Source: a virus
Lineage: Duplodnaviria > Caudoviricetes
DNA: 64,000 bases
Virus record (IMG/VR): IMGVR_UViG_2630968332_000001
Location: 1 to 64,000 of that record
Reading direction: 5' to 3' (one strand)
Part shown: positions 19,723-61,966 of the stretch, one piece after another
How positions within the stretch are numbered: the stretch's first letter is position 1
Layout of the letters: each line of letters starts with the position of its first letter
The notes under the pieces: generated by a model
What the model saw: the letters and a program-made list of their open reading frames with translations, nothing else
What the model was told of the DNA's origin: nothing
Databases searched by the model: none
Made by a program: the position numbers and the translations under genes

Positions 19723-20328
19723 ATGAAAGCAAATGAAGTAATGAAATTATTGCAAATTAGTCGTTCCACTTTATTAAGGTGGCGAAAAGATGGAATTTTA
19801 AAAGCTACTAAATTGCCTTCTGGGCAATATGATTGGGACGCTAATTCTGTTTTTAAAATATTAAATAAAGGTGAAGTTCGTGGTGTTTATTTATATGCTA
19901 GAGTGTCTACACCTAAACAAAAACAAGACCTTGAAAACCAAATTGAAAACCTGCAAAGTTTTGCGATGAAAAATGGTTATCAAGTTAAAGGTCTATACAA
20001 AGATATAGCTAGTGGAATTTCTTTTGAAAAAAGAAAGGAGTTTTTTGAATTATTAGATCTTGTAATTAGTGGTAAAGTATTAAAGATTATTATCACCTAC
20101 AAGGATAGATTAAGTCGTGTTGGTTTCGATCTGTTTAAATACTTATTTTCCAAGTATCATACCGAGATAATTGTGATGTCAGAATTAACCGATAAAAAGA
20201 CAGACCAACAAGAAATATTTGAAGAAATCATTAGCTTGTTGCACGCATTTTCAATGAGAATGTACTCGAGTAGAAGAAAGAAAATTAAAGAAGCTTTGGA
20301 AGATAAGGAGGTGAATAAGGATGGTTAA
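19723..20328 (+). CDS. tnpA: IS607 serine recombinase transposase
   Basis: MerR-like HTH, YARVST, DIASG, YKDRLSRVGF. Confidence 0.95.
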   Translation: MKANEVMKLLQISRSTLLRWRKDGILKATKLPSGQYDWDANSVFKILNKGEVRGVYLYARVSTPKQKQDLENQIENLQSFAMKNGYQVKGLYKDIASGISFEKRKEFFELLDLVISGKVLKIIITYKDRLSRVGFDLFKYLFSKYHTEIIVMSELTDKKTDQQEIFEEIISLLHAFSMRMYSSRRKKIKEALEDKEVNKDG

Positions 20329-21664
20329 ACAGCAAAAATCAAAGAAGAAAGTCATAAAAACTTTTAAAGAAGTAAGAGCAGAGAAAACGGAAGTTCAATA
20401 TGAGTATTTGGTGGAAAAGCATATTATTAAATCTAATGATGCACGTTATGCTATTTTAGATAAATACGCTCATCTATCCAATAATGTCTACAACCAAGCT
20501 CTATATCGTTTTAGACAGGCTTTCTTTAAGGGTAAGTGGCTGAGTTACGAAAAACTAGACAAATCATTTAAACAATCTTTTAATCAAAAGGACTGTATGC
20601 TGTATCGTTCTATGAAAAGTGTACATTTAGCTCAACAAATTTTAAAGTTAGTCAATCAAAATATGACTTCTTGGAATAAAGCTCGTAAAGCATATTTAAA
20701 GGCACCGCAAAAGTTCACTGGCAAGCCTAAAATACCCAAATATAAACCCAAAGGCGGTAAAAATATTGTTATCGTAGATAACCAAACTGCTAAATTAAGA
20801 GCTAATGGAATTGTAGAAATACCAGTGATGGATAGCTTGAAAATTAAGTTACAACACAAAAAAACTAATAAAATTCAACAAGTTAGAATAATCCCTAGAA
20901 ATAATACTTTTGTAATTGAAATAGTTTATAAAACTAATAAGGTTATTGACTACAAAGAAGATAATGGACGCTATTTAACGATTGACCCAGGACTTGATAA
21001 TGCCTTTACGTTGGCATCTAATGTTAAAGGATTCAAACCTGTCATTATTAATGGACGTCCTTTAAAGTCAGTCAATCAATACTATAACAAGCAAAAAGCT
21101 AGATTAACTAGAATTTATGACTTGTCAAAACAAAATCGTAATACTAAGCGTTTAAATAAACTTGATTTTTATCGTAATCAAAAAATGTTAAAATTCGCTC
21201 ATGAAGCAAGTAAACGCATTGTTGAGATAGCGTTAAGCCATGAGTTAAACACGATTGTTATTGGTAAAAATAAAGGGCAAAAACGTTCTAGTAATATGGG
21301 AAAACGAATAAACCAAAACTTTATTGGTATTCCACATCAAAAAATGCTTGAGATGATTGAATATAAAGCTAATTTAGCAGAGATAGTTGTAATTCAAGCT
21401 AACGAAGCTTATACAAGTCAAACTTCATTTTTAGATAATGAAATACCAATTAAACAAAATGGCGATAAAGCTCGTAAACGTAAAGGGTTAAGTCCTGTCA
21501 AAAGACGCGTTAAACGTGGTTTATTTAAATCAAATAAAGGTATCTTAATTAACGCTGATGTTAATGGAGCGTTACAGATATTAAGAAAAGTAGTACCGAA
21601 TGCTTTTGCTGACGGTATAGATGGAATCGGATTAGTTCCAGTTAAGCTAAACTTAAATTTCTAA
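20321..21664 (+). CDS. tnpB: TnpB RNA-guided nuclease (IS607 type, rearranged RuvC-II)
   Basis: IDPGLDN, IVIGKN with alternative Glu in NEAYTS, NADVNGA; no zinc-finger Cys. Confidence 0.93.
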   Translation: MVKQQKSKKKVIKTFKEVRAEKTEVQYEYLVEKHIIKSNDARYAILDKYAHLSNNVYNQALYRFRQAFFKGKWLSYEKLDKSFKQSFNQKDCMLYRSMKSVHLAQQILKLVNQNMTSWNKARKAYLKAPQKFTGKPKIPKYKPKGGKNIVIVDNQTAKLRANGIVEIPVMDSLKIKLQHKKTNKIQQVRIIPRNNTFVIEIVYKTNKVIDYKEDNGRYLTIDPGLDNAFTLASNVKGFKPVIINGRPLKSVNQYYNKQKARLTRIYDLSKQNRNTKRLNKLDFYRNQKMLKFAHEASKRIVEIALSHELNTIVIGKNKGQKRSSNMGKRINQNFIGIPHQKMLEMIEYKANLAEIVVIQANEAYTSQTSFLDNEIPIKQNGDKARKRKGLSPVKRRVKRGLFKSNKGILINADVNGALQILRKVVPNAFADGIDGIGLVPVKLNLNF

Positions 21665-41667: not shown

Positions 41668-41730
41668 TTGACTTTTATTTTTTATATGGTATTATAATAT
41701 ATGTAAGTTAAGAGTTAAGAGAATAAACGA
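41668..41730 (+). promoter_or_regulatory. Promoter of RNA locus with AGAGAATAAA leader motif
   Basis: TTGACT...TATAAT then gttaagagttaagagaataaa. Confidence 0.75.
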
Positions 41731-41813
41731 ATAACTCAAAGCTACAACAAAACAATTAAATAAATCTGTTAAATATGTTGAACTTAATGTAATTGTCCTT
41801 ACGTGAGTCAACA

Positions 41814-43078: not shown

Positions 43079-43180
43079 TAGAGGTGGAAACACCTCGAAA
43101 CAAACATTTATTAATTCGTTCATTTTTTATTAGTTGATTAGGTTTTGCGTATTAATCAACACTCCTTTTTAAATTATTTT

Positions 43181-43238
43181 GGTTGCCACAGGTGCAGTAA
43201 AGGTGCATTTTATAGGTTCGACTCCTACTGTGGTAATT
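43181..43238 (+). ncRNA. tRNA-like mini-element
   Basis: ttgccacag/ctgtggtaa stem, tagg-TTCGACT-ccta T-arm. Confidence 0.7.
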
Positions 43239-43395
43239 GGGGTAGAGCATGACTACCCCGAAAGCACAATAACGGTAAGTGCATAGATTTGTGTAATTTT
43301 TTGACATTGAATCTGAATTAATTCATGAACAGGTTCATTACGACTTACGGATTGGTTCATGATTTAAGATTTCCTCCTTTTGAATTAGAAGGTTC

Positions 43396-43453
43396 GCAAC
43401 GTAGCTCAACTGGTAGAGCAAAGGATGATGTGGGTTCGAGTCCCACCGTTGCA
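43396..43453 (+). ncRNA. Anticodon-arm-less tRNA-like element
   Basis: gcaacg/cgttgc acceptor, TAGCTCAACTGGTAGAGC D-arm, gtggg-TTCGAGT-cccac T-arm, only a ~10-nt linker. Confidence 0.8.
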
Positions 43454-43500
43454 ATTAGCCAATATGGCTATAAATATACAATAGAAAAGAGGTGAGATAG

Positions 43501-44757
43501 ATGAAGACAATGAGTGAGTTAAAATACCACTATGGCTTGAAGATGTGTATTCACCCTAGCACGAAGCAAAAGCAAATCATTAAGATGAACAGTGATGTAT
43601 CTAGGGCTGTATATAACGCTATGGTTGCGATTGATAAAGAGTTGTATCAACTCAAACAGGTAAAACTACCTATTGATACAATCCAAACACGTATTGCTGA
43701 ATTAGAAAAACGTAAGAAGGCTCAAAACTATTTAGCAACGCACTATACTTACATGAAACACCCTTATATTGATAGTCATTGTCGTTCTATGGCAATGCGT
43801 TCTTATAAAGCTGCATGGAATATGTTTAGAAAAGTTCATAACGTTGGTACACCTAATTTTCATAAGAAAACTTACGAGGAGAAGTATCAAACAAGTGGAA
43901 CTTATACGAGTAAGAAGAAACCAGTTAATATGTGGACTGGCTCAATTAGATTTGTAGACAATAAACATATTAATATTCCTAAGCTGGGTATTATTCGTGT
44001 GAGTGGTTCGTATAGAAAACTACTAGATAATAAAGATGATATTAGAATTGGCACAACTACTATTTCTAAAAATGCTTTTGGTATCTACTACGTTTCTATG
44101 CAGTTGGGTTCAGATACACCTTTTGTTAAAGAATTGCCTAAAACTAATTCTCAAGTTGGAATCGACTTGAATACAGATAACTTCTTAACAACAAGCGAAG
44201 GTAATGTTATAGCTAACCCGAGATTTTATAGAACTATCAAGGGTCGATTGGCTAAAGCACAACGTAAATTATCACGCAGACAAGTTAGAGCCAAGAAAGA
44301 AGGACGCTCCTTACGTGATAGCAAGAATTACCAAAAGCAACGCATAGTGGTATCAAAACTTATGAATAAAGTGCGTAATCAACGTAATAAATTCTTAGAT
44401 GAAATGTCAATAACACTTATCAAGAACCACGATTTGGTTGTGGCTGAAAATCTAAGAAGTAAAAATATGTTGAGAAATCACGCTTTGGCTATGTCTATTA
44501 GTGATGTAGGTTGGAGAACATTCCTACAAAAACTAGAATACAAAGCTGAATTATATGGTAAGACTTTTGTTACTGTAAATCCTAAGAATACTACACAAAC
44601 ATGTAGCGAATGTGGGCATGTTATGGGAACAAAAGATACGGATAAGCTAACACTAAAAGATAGAAGTTGGGCTTGTCCTAGCTGTAATACTTACCATATA
44701 CGTGATGTAAATGCAGCAAAGAATATCCTAGACAAAGGATTAAAACAATTAGCCTAG
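43501..44757 (+). CDS. tnpB: TnpB (IS200/IS605 type), CRISPR-adjacent, no tnpA
   Basis: GIDLN, VAENL, CSECG...CPSC, RDVNAAKNI: RuvC D-E-D and zinc finger intact. Confidence 0.93.
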   Translation: MKTMSELKYHYGLKMCIHPSTKQKQIIKMNSDVSRAVYNAMVAIDKELYQLKQVKLPIDTIQTRIAELEKRKKAQNYLATHYTYMKHPYIDSHCRSMAMRSYKAAWNMFRKVHNVGTPNFHKKTYEEKYQTSGTYTSKKKPVNMWTGSIRFVDNKHINIPKLGIIRVSGSYRKLLDNKDDIRIGTTTISKNAFGIYYVSMQLGSDTPFVKELPKTNSQVGIDLNTDNFLTTSEGNVIANPRFYRTIKGRLAKAQRKLSRRQVRAKKEGRSLRDSKNYQKQRIVVSKLMNKVRNQRNKFLDEMSITLIKNHDLVVAENLRSKNMLRNHALAMSISDVGWRTFLQKLEYKAELYGKTFVTVNPKNTTQTCSECGHVMGTKDTDKLTLKDRSWACPSCNTYHIRDVNAAKNILDKGLKQLA

Positions 44758-44759
44758 AA

Positions 44760-44938
44760 ATAGGTAGTCCGTTTGTCTGTTGCGGACTCAAAAGCATTTG
44801 GTAATTACCATGTAAGACCTTTATTTCAGATTTTTCTGATACAAAGGCAACGGTGTATCTAATGAAATTTTGGCAACCCTAAAAAATTAGGAGTTCCCAA
44901 AACCCTAGTACTGTGGGATTTGTTAGTCTGTTTTTAGT
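44760..44938 (+). ncRNA. omegaRNA/tracrRNA-like scaffold
   Basis: Structured region between tnpB stop and array; hairpin loop GTCTGT complementary to repeat end ACAGAC. Confidence 0.65.
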
Positions 44939-45155
44939 GTGTTACCCATATGTGCGTGGGGACAGACTGGAATACGTACAAACGATATACTCAAACTCAA
45001 GGTGTTACCCACATACGTGTGGGGCAGACTACGGCAAGTTTTTTAAAGACAATGAAGAATATGTGTTACCCATATGTGCGTGGGGACAGACTATATGTAG
45101 TTAAGAGTTTAGCGAACAAACGAAAGTGCTACTCATATGTGTCAAAGAACATATA
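44939..45155 (+). CRISPR. Mini CRISPR array: 3 repeats plus a degenerate 4th, 3 spacers
   Basis: GTGTTACCCATATGTGCGTGGGGACAGACT at 44939 and 45063, variant at 45002, degenerate at 45126; spacers 33, 32, 33 nt. Confidence 0.9.
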
Positions 45156-48699: not shown

Positions 48700-49257
48700 A
48701 TGGTTTACAATTCTAAACCACTTAGAACACAAGCCCAGATAGATGATGTGTTATTCTATTTAAGACGAACTCGTTATCCAGAACGTGATACATTCTTATT
48801 TTTGATTGGAATTAACACTGGGTTAAGATGTTCTGACATAGTGAAACTCAAAATAGGTACTTTAAGACATTCCAAGCGACCAGAAATCACAGAGAAGAAA
48901 ACTGGTAAAAAGAGAACGTTATTCCTAGACAATGTGCAAGATATTGTGCGTGATTATATCGAAGGCAAAGATGATAGTGAGTGGGCATTCCCATCTAGCT
49001 ATGATAAGAGCAAACATATAACGGTGCAGAATGTATATAAACTATTCAAACGAATTGATAATGAATTAGGTGGAATAGGTTTTACCACACACTCTATGAG
49101 AAGGACGTTCGGTTTGTGGTATTATCGTAAGACTAAAAACATATATTACTTGATGGAGTTGTTCAATCATTCCAGTCAAACCATCACCATGAGATATATC
49201 GGTCTTACGGAAGATGAGTTAGGGGACTCTTTAGAAGGGTTCAGAATAGGGTATTAA
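48700..49257 (+). CDS. Small tyrosine recombinase (catalytic domain only)
   Basis: TGLRCSD, EKKTGK, HSMRRTF, FNHSS, TMRYIG. Confidence 0.92.
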   Translation: MVYNSKPLRTQAQIDDVLFYLRRTRYPERDTFLFLIGINTGLRCSDIVKLKIGTLRHSKRPEITEKKTGKKRTLFLDNVQDIVRDYIEGKDDSEWAFPSSYDKSKHITVQNVYKLFKRIDNELGGIGFTTHSMRRTFGLWYYRKTKNIYYLMELFNHSSQTITMRYIGLTEDELGDSLEGFRIGY

Positions 49258-54671: not shown

Positions 54672-54890
54672 GGTTTAGCACCTCCAAAGTATTGTTAAAA
54701 ATTCTCGGCACGAATTAACGGTATGTGCCTAAGCCCCACCACGCTCTCAAAAACGTGTGATAGCTCAAATCTGCTAATGTAAGGCGATTGACGTGACTAA
54801 TAAAGTACAATCCATTCATACCTTATTTTATATTGGTAGATTTATCTACCTATGACCTATTAACCTTTTACAATTAATAGACCCAGTGCA

Positions 54891-60408: not shown

Positions 60409-61966
60409 CTGCTATATAAAATGTGGAATAATGTAGAACAATATTTATTAGTTCTACATTATTAGAAAGAAATATAGTTTTTCCTTTCCTAGATTTTATT
60501 TACTACCGTCAACAACAGTATTCCCATATCCTAATAAAAGGGTAATGACATTGACTGTCTCTGATAACCTAAGGGTGTAGCCCACCCCGTTGTATTTTTA
60601 TGCTACTAAATTCAATAAATTCATAACCGCATTTTCATCTCTATCCATAATCGAACCACATTCATAACAAATATATTCGTTATGTTTTGTTCCATGCTTA
60701 CGATTACCATTAAGACCAACTTTATCTTCGCCAGTCTTGATATATCCACATTCAGAACATCTTTGTGTGCTTGGATAATATTGGTCTGCTAAGACTATTT
60801 CCTTGCCATACCAGCCAGCTTTATAAACCAATACTTGTCTAAAAGTTCCAAATAATGACCTTTGTAAACCTTTAGAAGCAACGTGTGTCATCTGCATTTT
60901 CTTCACATCTAAATCTTCGATTACGATTTTGTCGTAATCACTTACTAATTTAGTTGTAAATTTATGAATAATATCATGTTGGATATTAGCCACTTTACGA
61001 TAATCACGTTGCAACTTGGCTCTCGTTTTAACGTAATTATTCGACTTAGTTGCTTTCTTTCCATTAACAACACGTTTTCTAGCTAACTGACGTTGGTAAT
61101 GTTTGATACGTTTATAGAGTTTCTTTAGATGATTAGGCAATGTATTAACTTTACCTTCGGTATAGTTAAAATGACCGACATTAATATCTACAGCTGTTTT
61201 CTTACCAGTTTTAGTTTTCTTGGTTATTTCAACTTCAAAAGGTAAACTAGCCCAATATTTACCGTTTTCACGATAAATTGATACAACTTTTAAATCACCA
61301 TCTAAACTCTTAGCGCCTTTAAAACTAATACCATACCAAGTTTTAACCCCACGAGGTTTATCAAGTCTTAACTTGCCATTAATAATCTTGGCTCTGTCAG
61401 TTTTAAAACCTTGTCTAGTAGCTTTCTTAGATTTAAATTTAGGTTTACCCCAGTCTGGCATAGCTTTATTAAAAAAGTTGCTCCATGCTTTACCTAAATC
61501 AGAAATCGCTAACTGTAAGCAACGAGGTGATAATTGATACTGCCAATCCTCTTTATTAGCTACTAACTCATCACGCACCTTGCGTTCGCTAGGTTTTAAC
61601 TTTTTATCATCTAAAATCAACGAACTATCATACATATCATTCCATAAAGCTAAGCCTTGATTCCAACAATATCTACGATAATCACATAAATCATCAAGAA
61701 CTTTCTTCATGGTTTTATTTGGATAAAGTCTTACCTTTTGCGTTCTAATCATATATATCACCACCTTGCTTCACAAAATTGATATAATAAATTTATCTTC
61801 TATATTATACTAACTTTAGAGAAGTAAGTCAAGATATATTCATGAAAAAATGAAGATGTTTTATGTTTTTGAATTCATTGTTTTTAAGCCTATTTCACAT
61901 TTTTACTCTTTCTAGTAGGCTCGTTGTTCTATATAGTTCTACATAATTCTATATTTTTGTTAACAG
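60409..61966 (-). mobile_element. Non-autonomous tnpB-only element with imperfect inverted ends
   Basis: 31-nt ends ctgctatataaaatgtggaataatgtagaac vs ctgttaacaaaaatatagaattatgtagaac (24/31 by hand count). Confidence 0.75.
60598..61752 (-). CDS. tnpB: TnpB RNA-guided nuclease
   Basis: AVDIN, VIEDL, CSECG...CYECG, DRDENA. Confidence 0.93.
   Translation of the reverse strand: MIRTQKVRLYPNKTMKKVLDDLCDYRRYCWNQGLALWNDMYDSSLILDDKKLKPSERKVRDELVANKEDWQYQLSPRCLQLAISDLGKAWSNFFNKAMPDWGKPKFKSKKATRQGFKTDRAKIINGKLRLDKPRGVKTWYGISFKGAKSLDGDLKVVSIYRENGKYWASLPFEVEITKKTKTGKKTAVDINVGHFNYTEGKVNTLPNHLKKLYKRIKHYQRQLARKRVVNGKKATKSNNYVKTRAKLQRDYRKVANIQHDIIHKFTTKLVSDYDKIVIEDLDVKKMQMTHVASKGLQRSLFGTFRQVLVYKAGWYGKEIVLADQYYPSTQRCSECGYIKTGEDKVGLNGNRKHGTKHNEYICYECGSIMDRDENAVMNLLNLVA

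What the first reader, a model, noticed from the sequence alone, without database searches (positions are those of the whole stretch)
45093..45125. Spacer 3 resembles the element's own promoter-leader motif
Seen: spacer 3 (atatgtagttaagagtttagcgaacaaacgaaa) aligns to 41699-41732 (atatgtaagttaagagttaagagaataaacgaat) with one gap and four mismatches. That site is the start of the transcript carrying this locus, and the same motif recurs at other promoters. Inference: the spacer targets the homologous promoter of a related competing phage, with seed-region divergence protecting self, or it gives non-cleaving autoregulation. Spacers 1 and 2 have no match I could find in the window.
Basis: partly seen in the sequence, partly recalled or inferred. 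Interest (0 to 1): 0.85.

Follow-up and report, generated by a model that had tools for sequence, protein, structure and literature searches.

The report
Phage-plasmid TnpB spacer targets sibling promoter
A 129-kb phage-like plasmid of Ligilactobacillus salivarius carries a transposon-derived RNA-guided nuclease (TnpB) with a tiny CRISPR-like array, and one spacer matches a promoter start region of its sibling elements, while its own copy differs by one extra base.

Summary
Spacer 3 (45093-45125) aligns to 41699-41731 with 29 identities and one gap, score 24 against at most 19 in 200 shuffles.

The array belongs to tnpB (43501-44757). All 6 related loci have tnpB, a ~180-nt omega-RNA scaffold, then repeats that copy the scaffold's last hairpin and pseudoknot tail, each with different spacers.

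In 3 of 3 assembled siblings the homologous promoter site matches spacer 3 without a gap: the first 17 bases are identical and there are 3 later mismatches. The window's own site has an extra A at protospacer position 7. That A is absent in those 3 siblings and in 4 of 4 sequencing runs laid.

TnpB keeps its RuvC triad and shows dN/dS of 0.04-0.09.

Best reading (0.55): the system excludes sibling elements, and the host element is spared by an indel in the seed. Autoregulation is unlikely. I found no perfect target, and activity is untested.

This is a new member of a known kind (TranC, phage Cas12r, virus mini-arrays). The scan has noted similar phage TnpB mini-arrays on other DNA, mostly without targets.

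The parts
41668..41698 (+). Sigma-70-like promoter: -35 TTGACT at 41668-73, and a TG-extended -10 TATTAT at 41690-95 that overlaps TATAAT at 41693-98. Its last six bases are the 5' flank of the near-protospacer and so a candidate TAM.
   Evidence: conserved in G001, G002 and L033
41699..41732 (+). The element's own near-protospacer for spacer 3, the start of a promoter-leader motif. An extra A (41705/41706) interrupts the match at protospacer position 7.
   Evidence: base 41705 is left out in 4 of 4 runs laid
43501..44757 (+). tnpB, 418 aa, with the RuvC triad D222/E316/D402 and a zinc ribbon. No tnpA lies beside it.
   Evidence: Pfam OrfB_IS605, Cas12f1-like_TNB and HTH; aligned to ISDra2 TnpB 8bf8; dN/dS 0.04-0.09 in 15 of 15 pairs; no Y1_Tnp in G000-G002
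44758..44938 (+). Omega-RNA-derived scaffold (tracr-like). Stem-loop 1 is 44767-44787, and its loop GTCTGT (44775-44780) is complementary to the repeat tail ACAGAC. A vestigial terminal hairpin CCCTAGTACTGTGGG lies at 44903-44917 and has no guide of its own.
   Evidence: homologous to the omega-RNA region of Ligilactobacillus-type IS605 relatives; pseudoknot partners covary between host IS and phage lineage
44939..44968 (+). Repeat 1: GTGTTA, a CCCA..TGGG hairpin, and the tail GACAGACT
   Evidence: folds as a hairpin
44969..45001 (+). Spacer 1 (33 nt). It has no DNA match. Frame 1 reads GIRTNDILKLK, which resembles the element's own tyrosine recombinase motif.
45002..45030 (+). Repeat 2, a variant with compensated stem CCCACA/TGTGGG
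45031..45062 (+). Spacer 2 (32 nt), no match found
45063..45092 (+). Repeat 3, identical to repeat 1
45093..45125 (+). Spacer 3 (33 nt), the finding. It is the trailer-end spacer.
45126..45155 (+). Degenerate terminal repeat GTGCTACTCATATGTGTCAAAGAACATATA. The same sequence ends the G002 array.

Best explanation
Spacer 3 is a guide of a TnpB-derived mini type V system (TranC/Cas12r-like) carried by a phage-like plasmid of L. salivarius.

Proposed mechanism. The locus makes TnpB, a ~180-nt scaffold RNA, and repeat-spacer units. Each repeat is a copy of the omega-RNA's last hairpin plus its pseudoknot tail. I infer that this tail docks on the loop of scaffold stem-loop 1 and places the following spacer as guide.

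Proposed target. Spacer 3 is directed at the transcription-start region of one particular promoter of sibling elements, the homologue of 41699. That region lies directly behind the -10 box TATAAT. Sibling DNA entering the same cell would be cut, or at least bound at that promoter. The carrier is spared because its own copy has a 1-base insertion at position 7 of the target, and because the spacer in the array is flanked by the repeat tail rather than by TATAAT.

Shown:
- the match and its statistics;
- the better, ungapped match in siblings, and the insertion found only in the carrier;
- the derivation of the repeats from the scaffold;
- the intact, selected nuclease;
- spacer turnover between relatives.

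Inferred:
- transcription and processing of the array;
- docking of crRNA on the scaffold in trans;
- the TAM;
- tolerance of the three distal mismatches;
- cleavage.
For: 1. Link between array and TnpB.
- All 6 loci with a TnpB 92-98% identical have tnpB, scaffold and array in the same order.
- In G003 the scaffold's own end, CCCTAGTACGATGGGATAGACT, abuts a 32-nt guide directly and is followed by repeats ...CCCATGCGTACATGGGATAGACT.
- In the repeat hairpin, 90.6% of cells are paired and 2 of 6 pairs change on both sides.
- The pseudoknot covaries. In 42 host-IS sequences the loop CAACC pairs with the tail GGTTG. In 5 of 6 phage-lineage loci the loop is GTCTGT, complementary to the repeat tail ACAGAC.
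- The repeat pattern was found only in G001 and G002 among viral contigs. It had 0 hits in the collection of 185,579 species genomes.
- No Cas1 is present in 0 of 4 genomes.

2. The nuclease looks functional.
- The RuvC triad aligns with D191/E278/D361 of ISDra2 TnpB and is kept in 6 of 6 orthologues.
- dN/dS is 0.04-0.09 in 15 of 15 pairs, at dS 0.20-0.66.

3. Target.
- G001, G002 and L033 have TATAAT|ATATGTAGTTAAGAGTTAAGAGAATAAACGAAT.
- Spacer 3 matches this at 29 of 33 without a gap. Bases 1-17 are identical, and the mismatches are at 18, 21, 25 and 33.
- TnpB-bound RNA of ISDra2 carries a guide of about 16 nt (PMC8612924, passages).
- G000 aligns to G001 and G002 over 84% of its length at 92-94% identity, so they are siblings.

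4. Self-protection.
- The extra A at 41705 is 'left out' in 4 of 4 runs laid, from 4 studies, and is absent in G001, G002 and L033.

5. A second case.
- The trailer-end spacer of G002 matches G001 at 30 of 32 with a 2-base gap. It matches G002's own homologous site only with a 3-base gap, and the window's site at 43177-43206(-) less well.
- Its 5' flank is TAAAAT, against TATAAT for spacer 3.

6. Spacer turnover.
- The 16 spacers of the four genomes are all different.
- Five more different ones appear in runs X1 and X10 (table 5c).

7. Precedent.
- Archaeal virus mini-arrays carry spacers against close relatives. Their own orthologous loci carry point mutations or deletions, and the targets lie close to the arrays (PMC6858448, passages).
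Against: - No perfect protospacer was found. The distal 21-mer of the spacer has 0 hits in IMG/VR. There was nothing in 50,697 phage records, and only the record itself in PLSDB. No listed variant at 41716/41719/41723 appeared in the 4 runs, but that table was cut, with 507 rows not shown.
- The two Cs of the spacer (positions 21 and 25) occur in none of the 13 motif copies of the genome.
- Only 2 of 16 spacers from the four genomes have a near-full-length match among those genomes.
- The TAM is unknown. TATAAT and TAAAAT share only the ending -AAT/-AT with the left-end flanks of the IS relatives, TTCAAT and T/CTCAT.
- Nothing shows that the array is transcribed or processed, or that a repeat can dock on the scaffold in trans.
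- L034 has a mismatching loop and a decayed terminal hairpin, so the system does decay in some lineages.
- The extra A could be neutral or an assembly error. The error is unlikely, since the paper reports Sanger, 454 and 204-fold Illumina data (PMC4165912, Methods passage).
- The searched collections may leave out records very near the window.
Confidence: 0.55

Rival explanations
1. Relic. The array is evolutionary debris of omega-RNA end duplications. Spacer 3 was once taken from a sibling, or from the element itself, has since drifted, and has no present role.
For: - Three to four mismatches to every known site, and no perfect target.
- It is the trailer-end, presumably oldest spacer, next to a degenerate repeat.
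- L034 shows a decaying locus.
- There is no adaptation gene.
Against: - tnpB has no transposase yet is under strong purifying selection (dN/dS 0.04-0.09), which implies a function independent of transposition.
- The repeats keep the hairpin through compensatory changes and keep the pseudoknot tail.
- Every relative has a different spacer set.
- The first 17 bases of the spacer are still identical to the sibling site.
Confidence: 0.2
2. Autoregulation. Imperfect pairing of spacer 3 with the element's own promoter start region lets TnpB bind without cutting and damp the transcript that carries tnpB and the array, in the manner of TldR or Cas12c/m.
For: - The own site is 29 of 32 identical, lies at the transcription start, and sits upstream of the locus on the same strand.
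- TnpB relatives that repress promoters exist: TldR (abstract of bioRxiv 10.1101/2023.11.30.569447 in the listing; passage of PMC13565253).
Against: - The catalytic triad is intact in 6 of 6 orthologues, unlike TldR.
- The own site has a 1-base bulge at position 7, inside the TAM-proximal part where type V and TnpB guides are least tolerant (general knowledge; a seed at the 5' segment was shown for phage Cas12r).
- Spacer 3 is absent from the arrays of G001, G002, G003, L033 and L034, so it is not a conserved regulatory part.
Confidence: 0.08
3. Borrowed type I-E array, or RNA decoy. The repeats (29-30 nt, hairpin, 32-33-nt spacers) serve a host Cascade or Cas6e, or they sequester host Cas proteins, and their position behind tnpB is incidental.
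For:
- The phage Cas12r paper notes the same resemblance and proposes that host I-E Cas1-Cas2 does the adaptation.
Against: - The repeat is homologous to the scaffold's own 3' end, and its tail covaries with the scaffold loop.
- There were 0 hits of the repeat pattern in the collection of species genomes.
- The paper on the carrier strain reports a single CRISPR locus with 36-bp repeats (PMC4165912, passage).
- The array always travels with tnpB, even into the unrelated 180-kb element G003, which aligns to only 4.6% of G000.
Confidence: 0.05
4. Primordial homing guide. Spacer 3 is the remnant of the DNA that flanked the right end when the ancestral IS inserted behind the -10 box of a promoter-leader copy. 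It would then be the original omega-RNA guide, not an acquired spacer.
For: - In IS200/IS605 the guide equals the right-end flank and the TAM precedes the empty site (established knowledge).
- Spacer 3 sits at the distal end of the array.
- The match begins exactly behind a short A/T-rich motif.
Against: - Spacer 3 is followed by a degenerate repeat, not by the continuation of the leader.
- G002 has the same terminal repeat and downstream DNA but a different spacer in that slot.
Confidence: 0.04

Closest known systems
TranC, transposon-CRISPR intermediates (Jin et al., Cell 2025). The paper is not held. I know it through passages of bioRxiv 10.64898/2026.03.27.714800 and PMC13565253 and through the PDB entries LaTranC 9jfo/9jfq.
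   Same: - A TnpB-sized effector sits next to a short CRISPR array with no adaptation genes.
- The guide RNA is understood as an omega/right-end RNA split into a tracr-like part and repeat-spacer units.
- Phage-borne examples exist, such as CauTranC9, whose array targets phages.
   Different: - The protein is much closer to ISDra2 TnpB (E 1e-35 over the full length) than to LaTranC (E 5e-23, C-terminal third only).
- The full ~180-nt scaffold with a vestigial terminal hairpin is kept, and each repeat carries a whole hairpin plus pseudoknot tail.
- Repeats are 29-30 nt, against 32-38 nt for the clades.
- Whether this lineage is among the published clades could not be checked, because supplements are closed.
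Cas12r-CRISPR of Thermus Lalka phages (bioRxiv 10.64898/2026.04.20.719267; passages read)
   Same: - A phage-encoded TnpB-like nuclease is followed by a few 29-bp, partly degenerate repeats that resemble type I-E repeats.
- There are no adaptation genes, and spacers differ between sister phages.
- The seed lies at the 5' end of the protospacer.
   Different: - Cas12r needs no tracrRNA and has a 15-bp gap between gene and array. Here a 180-nt scaffold is retained.
- Cas12r spacers hit integrative elements of the host. Here the two spacers with matches hit sibling elements.
- Cas12r activity is shown by experiment. Here nothing is.
Virus-borne mini-CRISPR arrays in interviral conflicts (Medvedeva et al. 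2019, PMC6858448; abstract and passages read)
   Same: - Short arrays sit at the same genome position in sister viruses with different spacers.
- Spacers match close relatives.
- The carrier's orthologous site has a point mutation or indel that prevents self-targeting.
- Targets lie close to the array.
   Different: - Those arrays use host repeats and host Cas proteins and have 1-2 spacers.
- Here the element brings its own effector, and the repeats come from that effector's own RNA.
- The host here is bacterial.
- Matches here are imperfect (29 of 33, 30 of 32), whereas 100% matches are reported there.
TldR, TnpB-like nuclease-dead repressors (bioRxiv 10.1101/2023.11.30.569447, abstract start in the listing; PMC13565253 passage)
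   Same: A TnpB-derived protein whose guide matches a promoter region next to a TAM.
   Different: TldR proteins have lost the RuvC active site and carry one fixed guide. Here the triad is intact, the guides are several and variable, and the own promoter is mismatched in the seed.

Membership tests
TnpB (IS200/IS605 OrfB RNA-guided nuclease) | OrfB_IS605 RuvC core, zinc-ribbon TNB domain and N-terminal HTH | tested here: met
   PF01385 at 1.7e-16, PF07282 at 2.2e-25 and PF12323 at 1.1e-5, all above their cut-offs
TnpB (IS200/IS605 OrfB RNA-guided nuclease) | RuvC D-E-D catalytic triad | tested here: met
   D222/E316/D402 align with D191/E278/D361 of 8bf8. The residue numbers of ISDra2 were counted from that alignment; their catalytic role is recalled. 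The triad is kept in 6 of 6 orthologues.
TnpB (IS200/IS605 OrfB RNA-guided nuclease) | Omega-RNA scaffold encoded at and behind the 3' end of the gene | tested here: met
   The 180 nt behind the stop align block by block with the right-end region of 50 IS relatives
TnpB (IS200/IS605 OrfB RNA-guided nuclease) | Part of a mobile IS with TnpA and transposon ends | tested here: not met
   No Y1_Tnp (PF01797) in G000, G001 or G002. Its two hits in G003 lie elsewhere. The IS relatives L005-L009 do have a divergent tnpA.
TranC / minimal type V CRISPR-Cas | TnpB-like effector constantly next to a repeat-spacer array | tested here: met
   6 of 6 loci with 92-98% identical TnpB.
TranC / minimal type V CRISPR-Cas | Repeat derived from the omega-RNA 3' part and able to pair with the remaining scaffold | tested here: met
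   The G003 scaffold end is homologous to the repeat. Loop GTCTGT is complementary to tail ACAGAC, with compensatory difference from the host IS pair CAACC/GGTTG. This is sequence evidence only.
TranC / minimal type V CRISPR-Cas | crRNA plus tracrRNA guide DNA cleavage next to a PAM/TAM | not testable with these tools
   Needs RNA sequencing and interference assays
Cas12r-CRISPR (Lalka phages) | No tracrRNA; the array starts about 15 bp behind the gene | tested here: not met
   181 nt of conserved scaffold lie between the stop codon (44757) and repeat 1 (44939)
Virus-borne mini-CRISPR array using host Cas proteins | Repeats identical or near-identical to a host CRISPR array | tested here: not met
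   0 hits of two repeat patterns in the species-genome collection. The paper reports that the carrier strain's only CRISPR has 36-bp repeats. The patterns were strict, so a distant resemblance is not excluded.
Virus-borne mini-CRISPR array using host Cas proteins | Spacers match close relatives while the carrier's own orthologous site is mutated | tested here: met
   Spacer 3. G002 spacer 5. The matches are near-perfect, not perfect.
TldR (nuclease-dead TnpB repressor) | Loss of RuvC catalytic residues | tested here: not met
   Triad intact
Type I-E CRISPR array | Associated I-E cas genes or Cas1-Cas2 in the element | tested here: not met
   Cas1 (PF01867) found in 0 of 4 genomes. Other cas families were not searched.

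The most novel reading that the evidence does not exclude
The locus is an actively adapting sibling-exclusion system that works without any Cas1-Cas2 of its own, in a strain whose only reported CRISPR locus has 36-bp repeats.
- New hairpin-tail-spacer units would be added by an unknown route, either TnpB/omega-RNA-linked or recombinational.
- Spacers would be drawn preferentially from the neighbourhood of the locus in rival elements.
- The TAM (TAWAAT) would coincide with the -10 promoter box, so the nuclease is biased towards transcription start regions.
- The small indels seen at both known target sites among siblings would be traces of an arms race between sister elements.
Probability: 0.15. 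Interest if true: 0.8.

Novelty: new member of a known kind. Interest (0 to 1): 0.5.

Why it matters
Phage-borne TnpB mini-arrays (TranC, Cas12r) are recently described half-way stages between transposon guide RNAs and CRISPR. For most of them no natural target is known.

This element offers four things together:
- Two spacers have recognisable targets in sister elements.
- The carrier has a single-base self/non-self difference at one of those targets.
- A relative (G003) still has the unsplit omega-RNA with its own guide in front of the repeats.
- The carrier is a cultured L. salivarius strain in which the element is a stable circular replicon (PMC4165912).

That combination makes the questions 'does a TnpB use an array in trans?' and 'what are such arrays for?' directly testable with ordinary interference assays. 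It also suggests that a replicon filed as a 'putative chromid' is a phage-plasmid with its own exclusion system.

Tried and rejected
Searches that led nowhere:
- Megablast of window stretches against the phage collection gave no match, so the element has no close cultured relative there. The best protein-level hits are 33% (RecD-like helicase) and 40% (TnpB).
- Spacer 3 alone against phages gave only a 20-nt chance hit at E=4.
- The whole arrays of the window, G001 and G003 against phages gave nothing, or one chance hit at E=0.08.
- The window array and the 3.6-kb locus against PLSDB hit only the record itself.
- Spacer 1 with up to 3 mismatches had 0 hits in G001-G003.
- A codon-degenerate pattern for its peptide had 0 hits in IMG/VR.
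- The first, too strict repeat pattern had 0 hits in both collections because it required GGGG. The looser pattern recovered only G001 and G002.
- The sibling-type site TATAAT plus 17 nt occurs in IMG/VR only in G001 and G002.
- The HK97 capsid Pfam had no hit. Terminase_6N had one hit at 25.7 bits.

Ideas rejected:
- Chance resemblance.
- A borrowed host I-E array (see rivals).
- A TldR-like dead repressor, because the triad is intact.

Limits and errors:
- The fold of 'L033:6451-6479' used wrong coordinates and is disregarded.
- In some searches I used spacers 1 and 2 trimmed by 1-2 bases (32 and 30 nt). By the GTGTTA register they are 33 and 32 nt.
- I read five further spacers in the read-laying output (table 5c) by eye only. 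One begins CTAGGAATAAAC, like the 3' half of the leader motif.
- I did not see the supplements of the TranC and Cas12r papers, which may list this lineage.
This report is the same with that field added.
Full report
WHAT IS THERE. The window is the first half of a 129,218-bp, 33.9% G+C single-contig genome. IMG/VR classes it as a complete virus. PLSDB holds the same sequence as a circular plasmid of Ligilactobacillus salivarius, NZ_CP007648.1. The paper on that strain calls it a 'putative chromid' of mostly cryptic genes, reports two tRNA genes on it, and reports one chromosomal CRISPR locus with 36-bp repeats. In the passages I read it does not mention an array on this replicon (PMC4165912). 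The element has a terminase-like gene and phage-type replication genes, so I treat it as a phage-plasmid.

At 43501-44757 lies a 418-aa TnpB. Behind it come 181 nt of conserved non-coding sequence. Then come three repeats of 29-30 nt (44939, 45002, 45063) and a degenerate fourth (45126), separated by spacers of 33, 32 and 33 nt.

THE OBSERVATION. Spacer 3 aligns to 41699-41731 with 29 identities and one gap. The score is 24, against 14.8 +/- 1.2 (maximum 19) for 200 shuffles. Spacers 1 and 2 reach 13. The site starts directly behind a strong sigma-70-like promoter. It is the beginning of a 22-nt leader motif that follows 7 such promoters in the genome. Only the 41699 copy shares the first six spacer bases.

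THE ARRAY BELONGS TO TnpB.
- IMG/VR and metagenome scans found five further loci whose TnpB is 92-98% identical (G001, G002, G003, L033, L034). About 85 loci were 47-73% identical; those whose flanks I read (L005-L009) are ordinary IS605 elements with a divergent tnpA.
- All 6 close loci have the same scaffold followed by repeat-spacer units. None of the IS relatives whose right ends I read does.
- In G003 the scaffold's own terminal hairpin and tail (CCCTAGTACGATGGGATAGACT) directly precede a 32-nt guide, and repeats ending ...CATGGGATAGACT follow. The repeat is therefore a copy of the omega-RNA's 3' module.
- The repeat hairpin is maintained with compensatory changes (CCCATG/CATGGG, CCCACA/TGTGGG): 90.6% of cells are paired and 2 of 6 pairs change on both sides. 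With nine sequences this is modest, since 45 of 500 shuffles reach it.
- The pseudoknot is more telling. In 42 host-IS sequences the loop of stem-loop 1 reads ..GGCAACC.. and the 7 nt before the guide read GGTTGAC. That gives five Watson-Crick pairs, a mismatch and one more pair. In 5 of 6 phage-lineage loci the loop reads ..GTCTGT.. and the repeat tail reads (G)ACAGAC, which gives six Watson-Crick pairs. Crossing the host loop with the phage tail leaves only 3 of 7 pairs.
- So the repeats carry exactly the strand that docks on the scaffold. This is what a split omega-RNA (tracr-like part plus crRNA) needs, the principle published for TranC (known to me through).
- In the window, G001, G002 and L033 the scaffold's own terminal hairpin survives without a guide.
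- The repeat was not found in any bacterial or archaeal species genome. No Cas1 and, in G000-G002, no TnpA is present.

THE NUCLEASE IS KEPT. The RuvC triad aligns with that of ISDra2 TnpB and is present in 6 of 6 orthologues. All 15 pairwise comparisons give dN/dS of 0.04-0.09 at dS 0.20-0.66. A transposase-less tnpB under such constraint must do something other than support transposition.

WHAT SPACER 3 MATCHES BEST.
- G001 and G002 align to 84% of the window's genome at 92-94% identity. G003 shares only 4.6%, including this module.
- In G001, G002 and L033 the homologous promoter reads TATAAT|ATATGTAGTTAAGAGTTAAGAGAATAAACGAAT. Spacer 3 matches it without a gap: bases 1-17 are identical, and mismatches fall at 18, 21, 25 and 33.
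- The window's own site differs from these within the 33 nt only by one extra A (41705/41706), at protospacer position 7.
- Laying contigs of four runs from four studies on the locus shows that base left out in 4 of 4. No difference is listed at the three distal mismatch positions, although that table was cut.
- So every sampled relative has the seed-matching form, and only the carrier of spacer 3 has the interrupted form.
- ISDra2 TnpB carries a guide of about 16 nt (PMC8612924). If this TnpB is similar, the sibling site is a full match and the own site is not. That step is inference.

A SECOND CASE. The trailer-end spacer of G002 matches G001 at 30 of 32 with a 2-base gap. It matches G002's own site only with a 3-base gap, and the window's site (43177-43206, minus strand) less well. 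The three sites differ by small indels within the first 12 bases. The 5' flank is TAAAAT, against TATAAT for spacer 3. Both targets lie 2-3.4 kb upstream of the array. Own-site mutation and proximity of target to array were both described for archaeal virus mini-arrays (PMC6858448).

TURNOVER. The 16 spacers of the four genomes are all different, and runs X1 and X10 show five more. G000 and G002 share the degenerate terminal repeat and the DNA behind it, but not the last spacer. How spacers are gained is unknown. The phage Cas12r paper proposes host type I-E Cas1-Cas2 for a very similar repeat format, but the carrier strain here is reported to have only a 36-bp-repeat system.

WHAT IS NOT SHOWN.
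- No exact protospacer for spacer 3 exists in IMG/VR, the phage collection or PLSDB.
- Its two Cs (positions 21 and 25) occur in none of the 13 motif copies.
- Spacers 1 and 2 have no DNA match anywhere I searched.
- Spacer 1 reads GIRTNDILKLK in frame 1. That resembles the catalytic-arginine motif GLRCSDIVKLK of the element's own tyrosine recombinase (19 of 32 nt identical). A pattern written after seeing the match hits only that gene's orthologues and the spacer in six-frame translations of all four genomes. This fits a more distant relative's recombinase as the source, but the pattern is post hoc.
- The TAM, expression, processing and cleavage are all untested.

COMPARISON AND VERDICT. The system works like TranC and phage Cas12r (TnpB-derived effector plus mini-array) and like virus-borne mini-arrays (exclusion of close relatives with a mutated own site). 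By sequence the protein is an ordinary TnpB, closer to ISDra2 than to LaTranC. The locus differs from Cas12r in keeping the scaffold. The scan's earlier follow-ups describe several other phage TnpB mini-arrays, including repeat tails that mimic the pseudoknot strand, so the architecture is not new.

What this finding adds:
- recognisable natural targets;
- a one-base self/non-self difference;
- an unsplit intermediate (G003);
- a cultured carrier strain.

I rate it a new member of a known kind, interest 0.5.

Noticed in passing
window 8325, 11673, 42810 (+), 23420 (-); genome 124848 (-): A variant of the leader motif (..GAGTCTAGAGAATAAA) occurs 5 times without a recognisable promoter in front. 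L001, L002 and L033 keep the copy that corresponds to 42810. Its role is unknown.
   Followed up: no
window 43177-43206 (-): This is the near-protospacer of the trailer-end spacer of sibling G002. The three siblings differ here by small indels within the first 12 bases, and the 5' flank TAAAAT is conserved. The site overlaps a tRNA-like element on the + strand.
   Followed up: partly
window 44969-45001 and 48820-48852: Frame 1 of spacer 1 reads GIRTNDILKLK, like GLRCSDIVKLK in the element's own tyrosine recombinase (annotated as such). 19 of 32 nt are identical. A codon-degenerate search of IMG/VR found no source.
   Followed up: partly
window 20321-21664 (+) and 60598-61764 (-): Two further TnpB genes (447 and 388 aa) lie in the window. 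The second has an Rfam Transposase-1 RNA directly behind it at 60509-60567 (-). G003 shows 9 matches to the TnpB TNB-domain family. Only the 43501 lineage has an array in the loci I read.
   Followed up: partly
window 43395-43454 (+): Rfam scores a tRNA here (46 bits), just upstream of tnpB, but ARAGORN does not call it.
   Followed up: no
window 54731-54785 (-): A match to the Rfam salivarius-1 RNA family (56 bits, gathering score 50) on this element.
   Followed up: no
whole genome G000; terminase-like ORF at 120817-121215 (-): The replicon, published as a 'putative chromid' plasmid, is classed as a complete virus by IMG/VR. It has a terminase-like gene and phage-type replication genes, so it is probably a phage-plasmid. 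No HK97-type capsid Pfam hit was found.
   Followed up: partly
G002 (L113 1-200, L115 3860-4073): The G002 contig begins and ends inside its own array, with about 100 nt of overlap. Its 'direct terminal repeats' are the array, which has 5 spacers once the ends are joined.
   Followed up: yes
Read-laying table 5c, run X1, behind window 44960: One spacer of a metagenomic relative begins CTAGGAATAAAC, which resembles the 3' half of the same leader motif, and ends GAACAAACGA like spacer 3. I compared it by eye only.
   Followed up: no
L034 2390-2720: This locus looks decayed. The scaffold loop has a C that breaks the pseudoknot pair, the terminal hairpin is disrupted, and the repeats are truncated. 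The tnpB ORF is still intact.
   Followed up: partly
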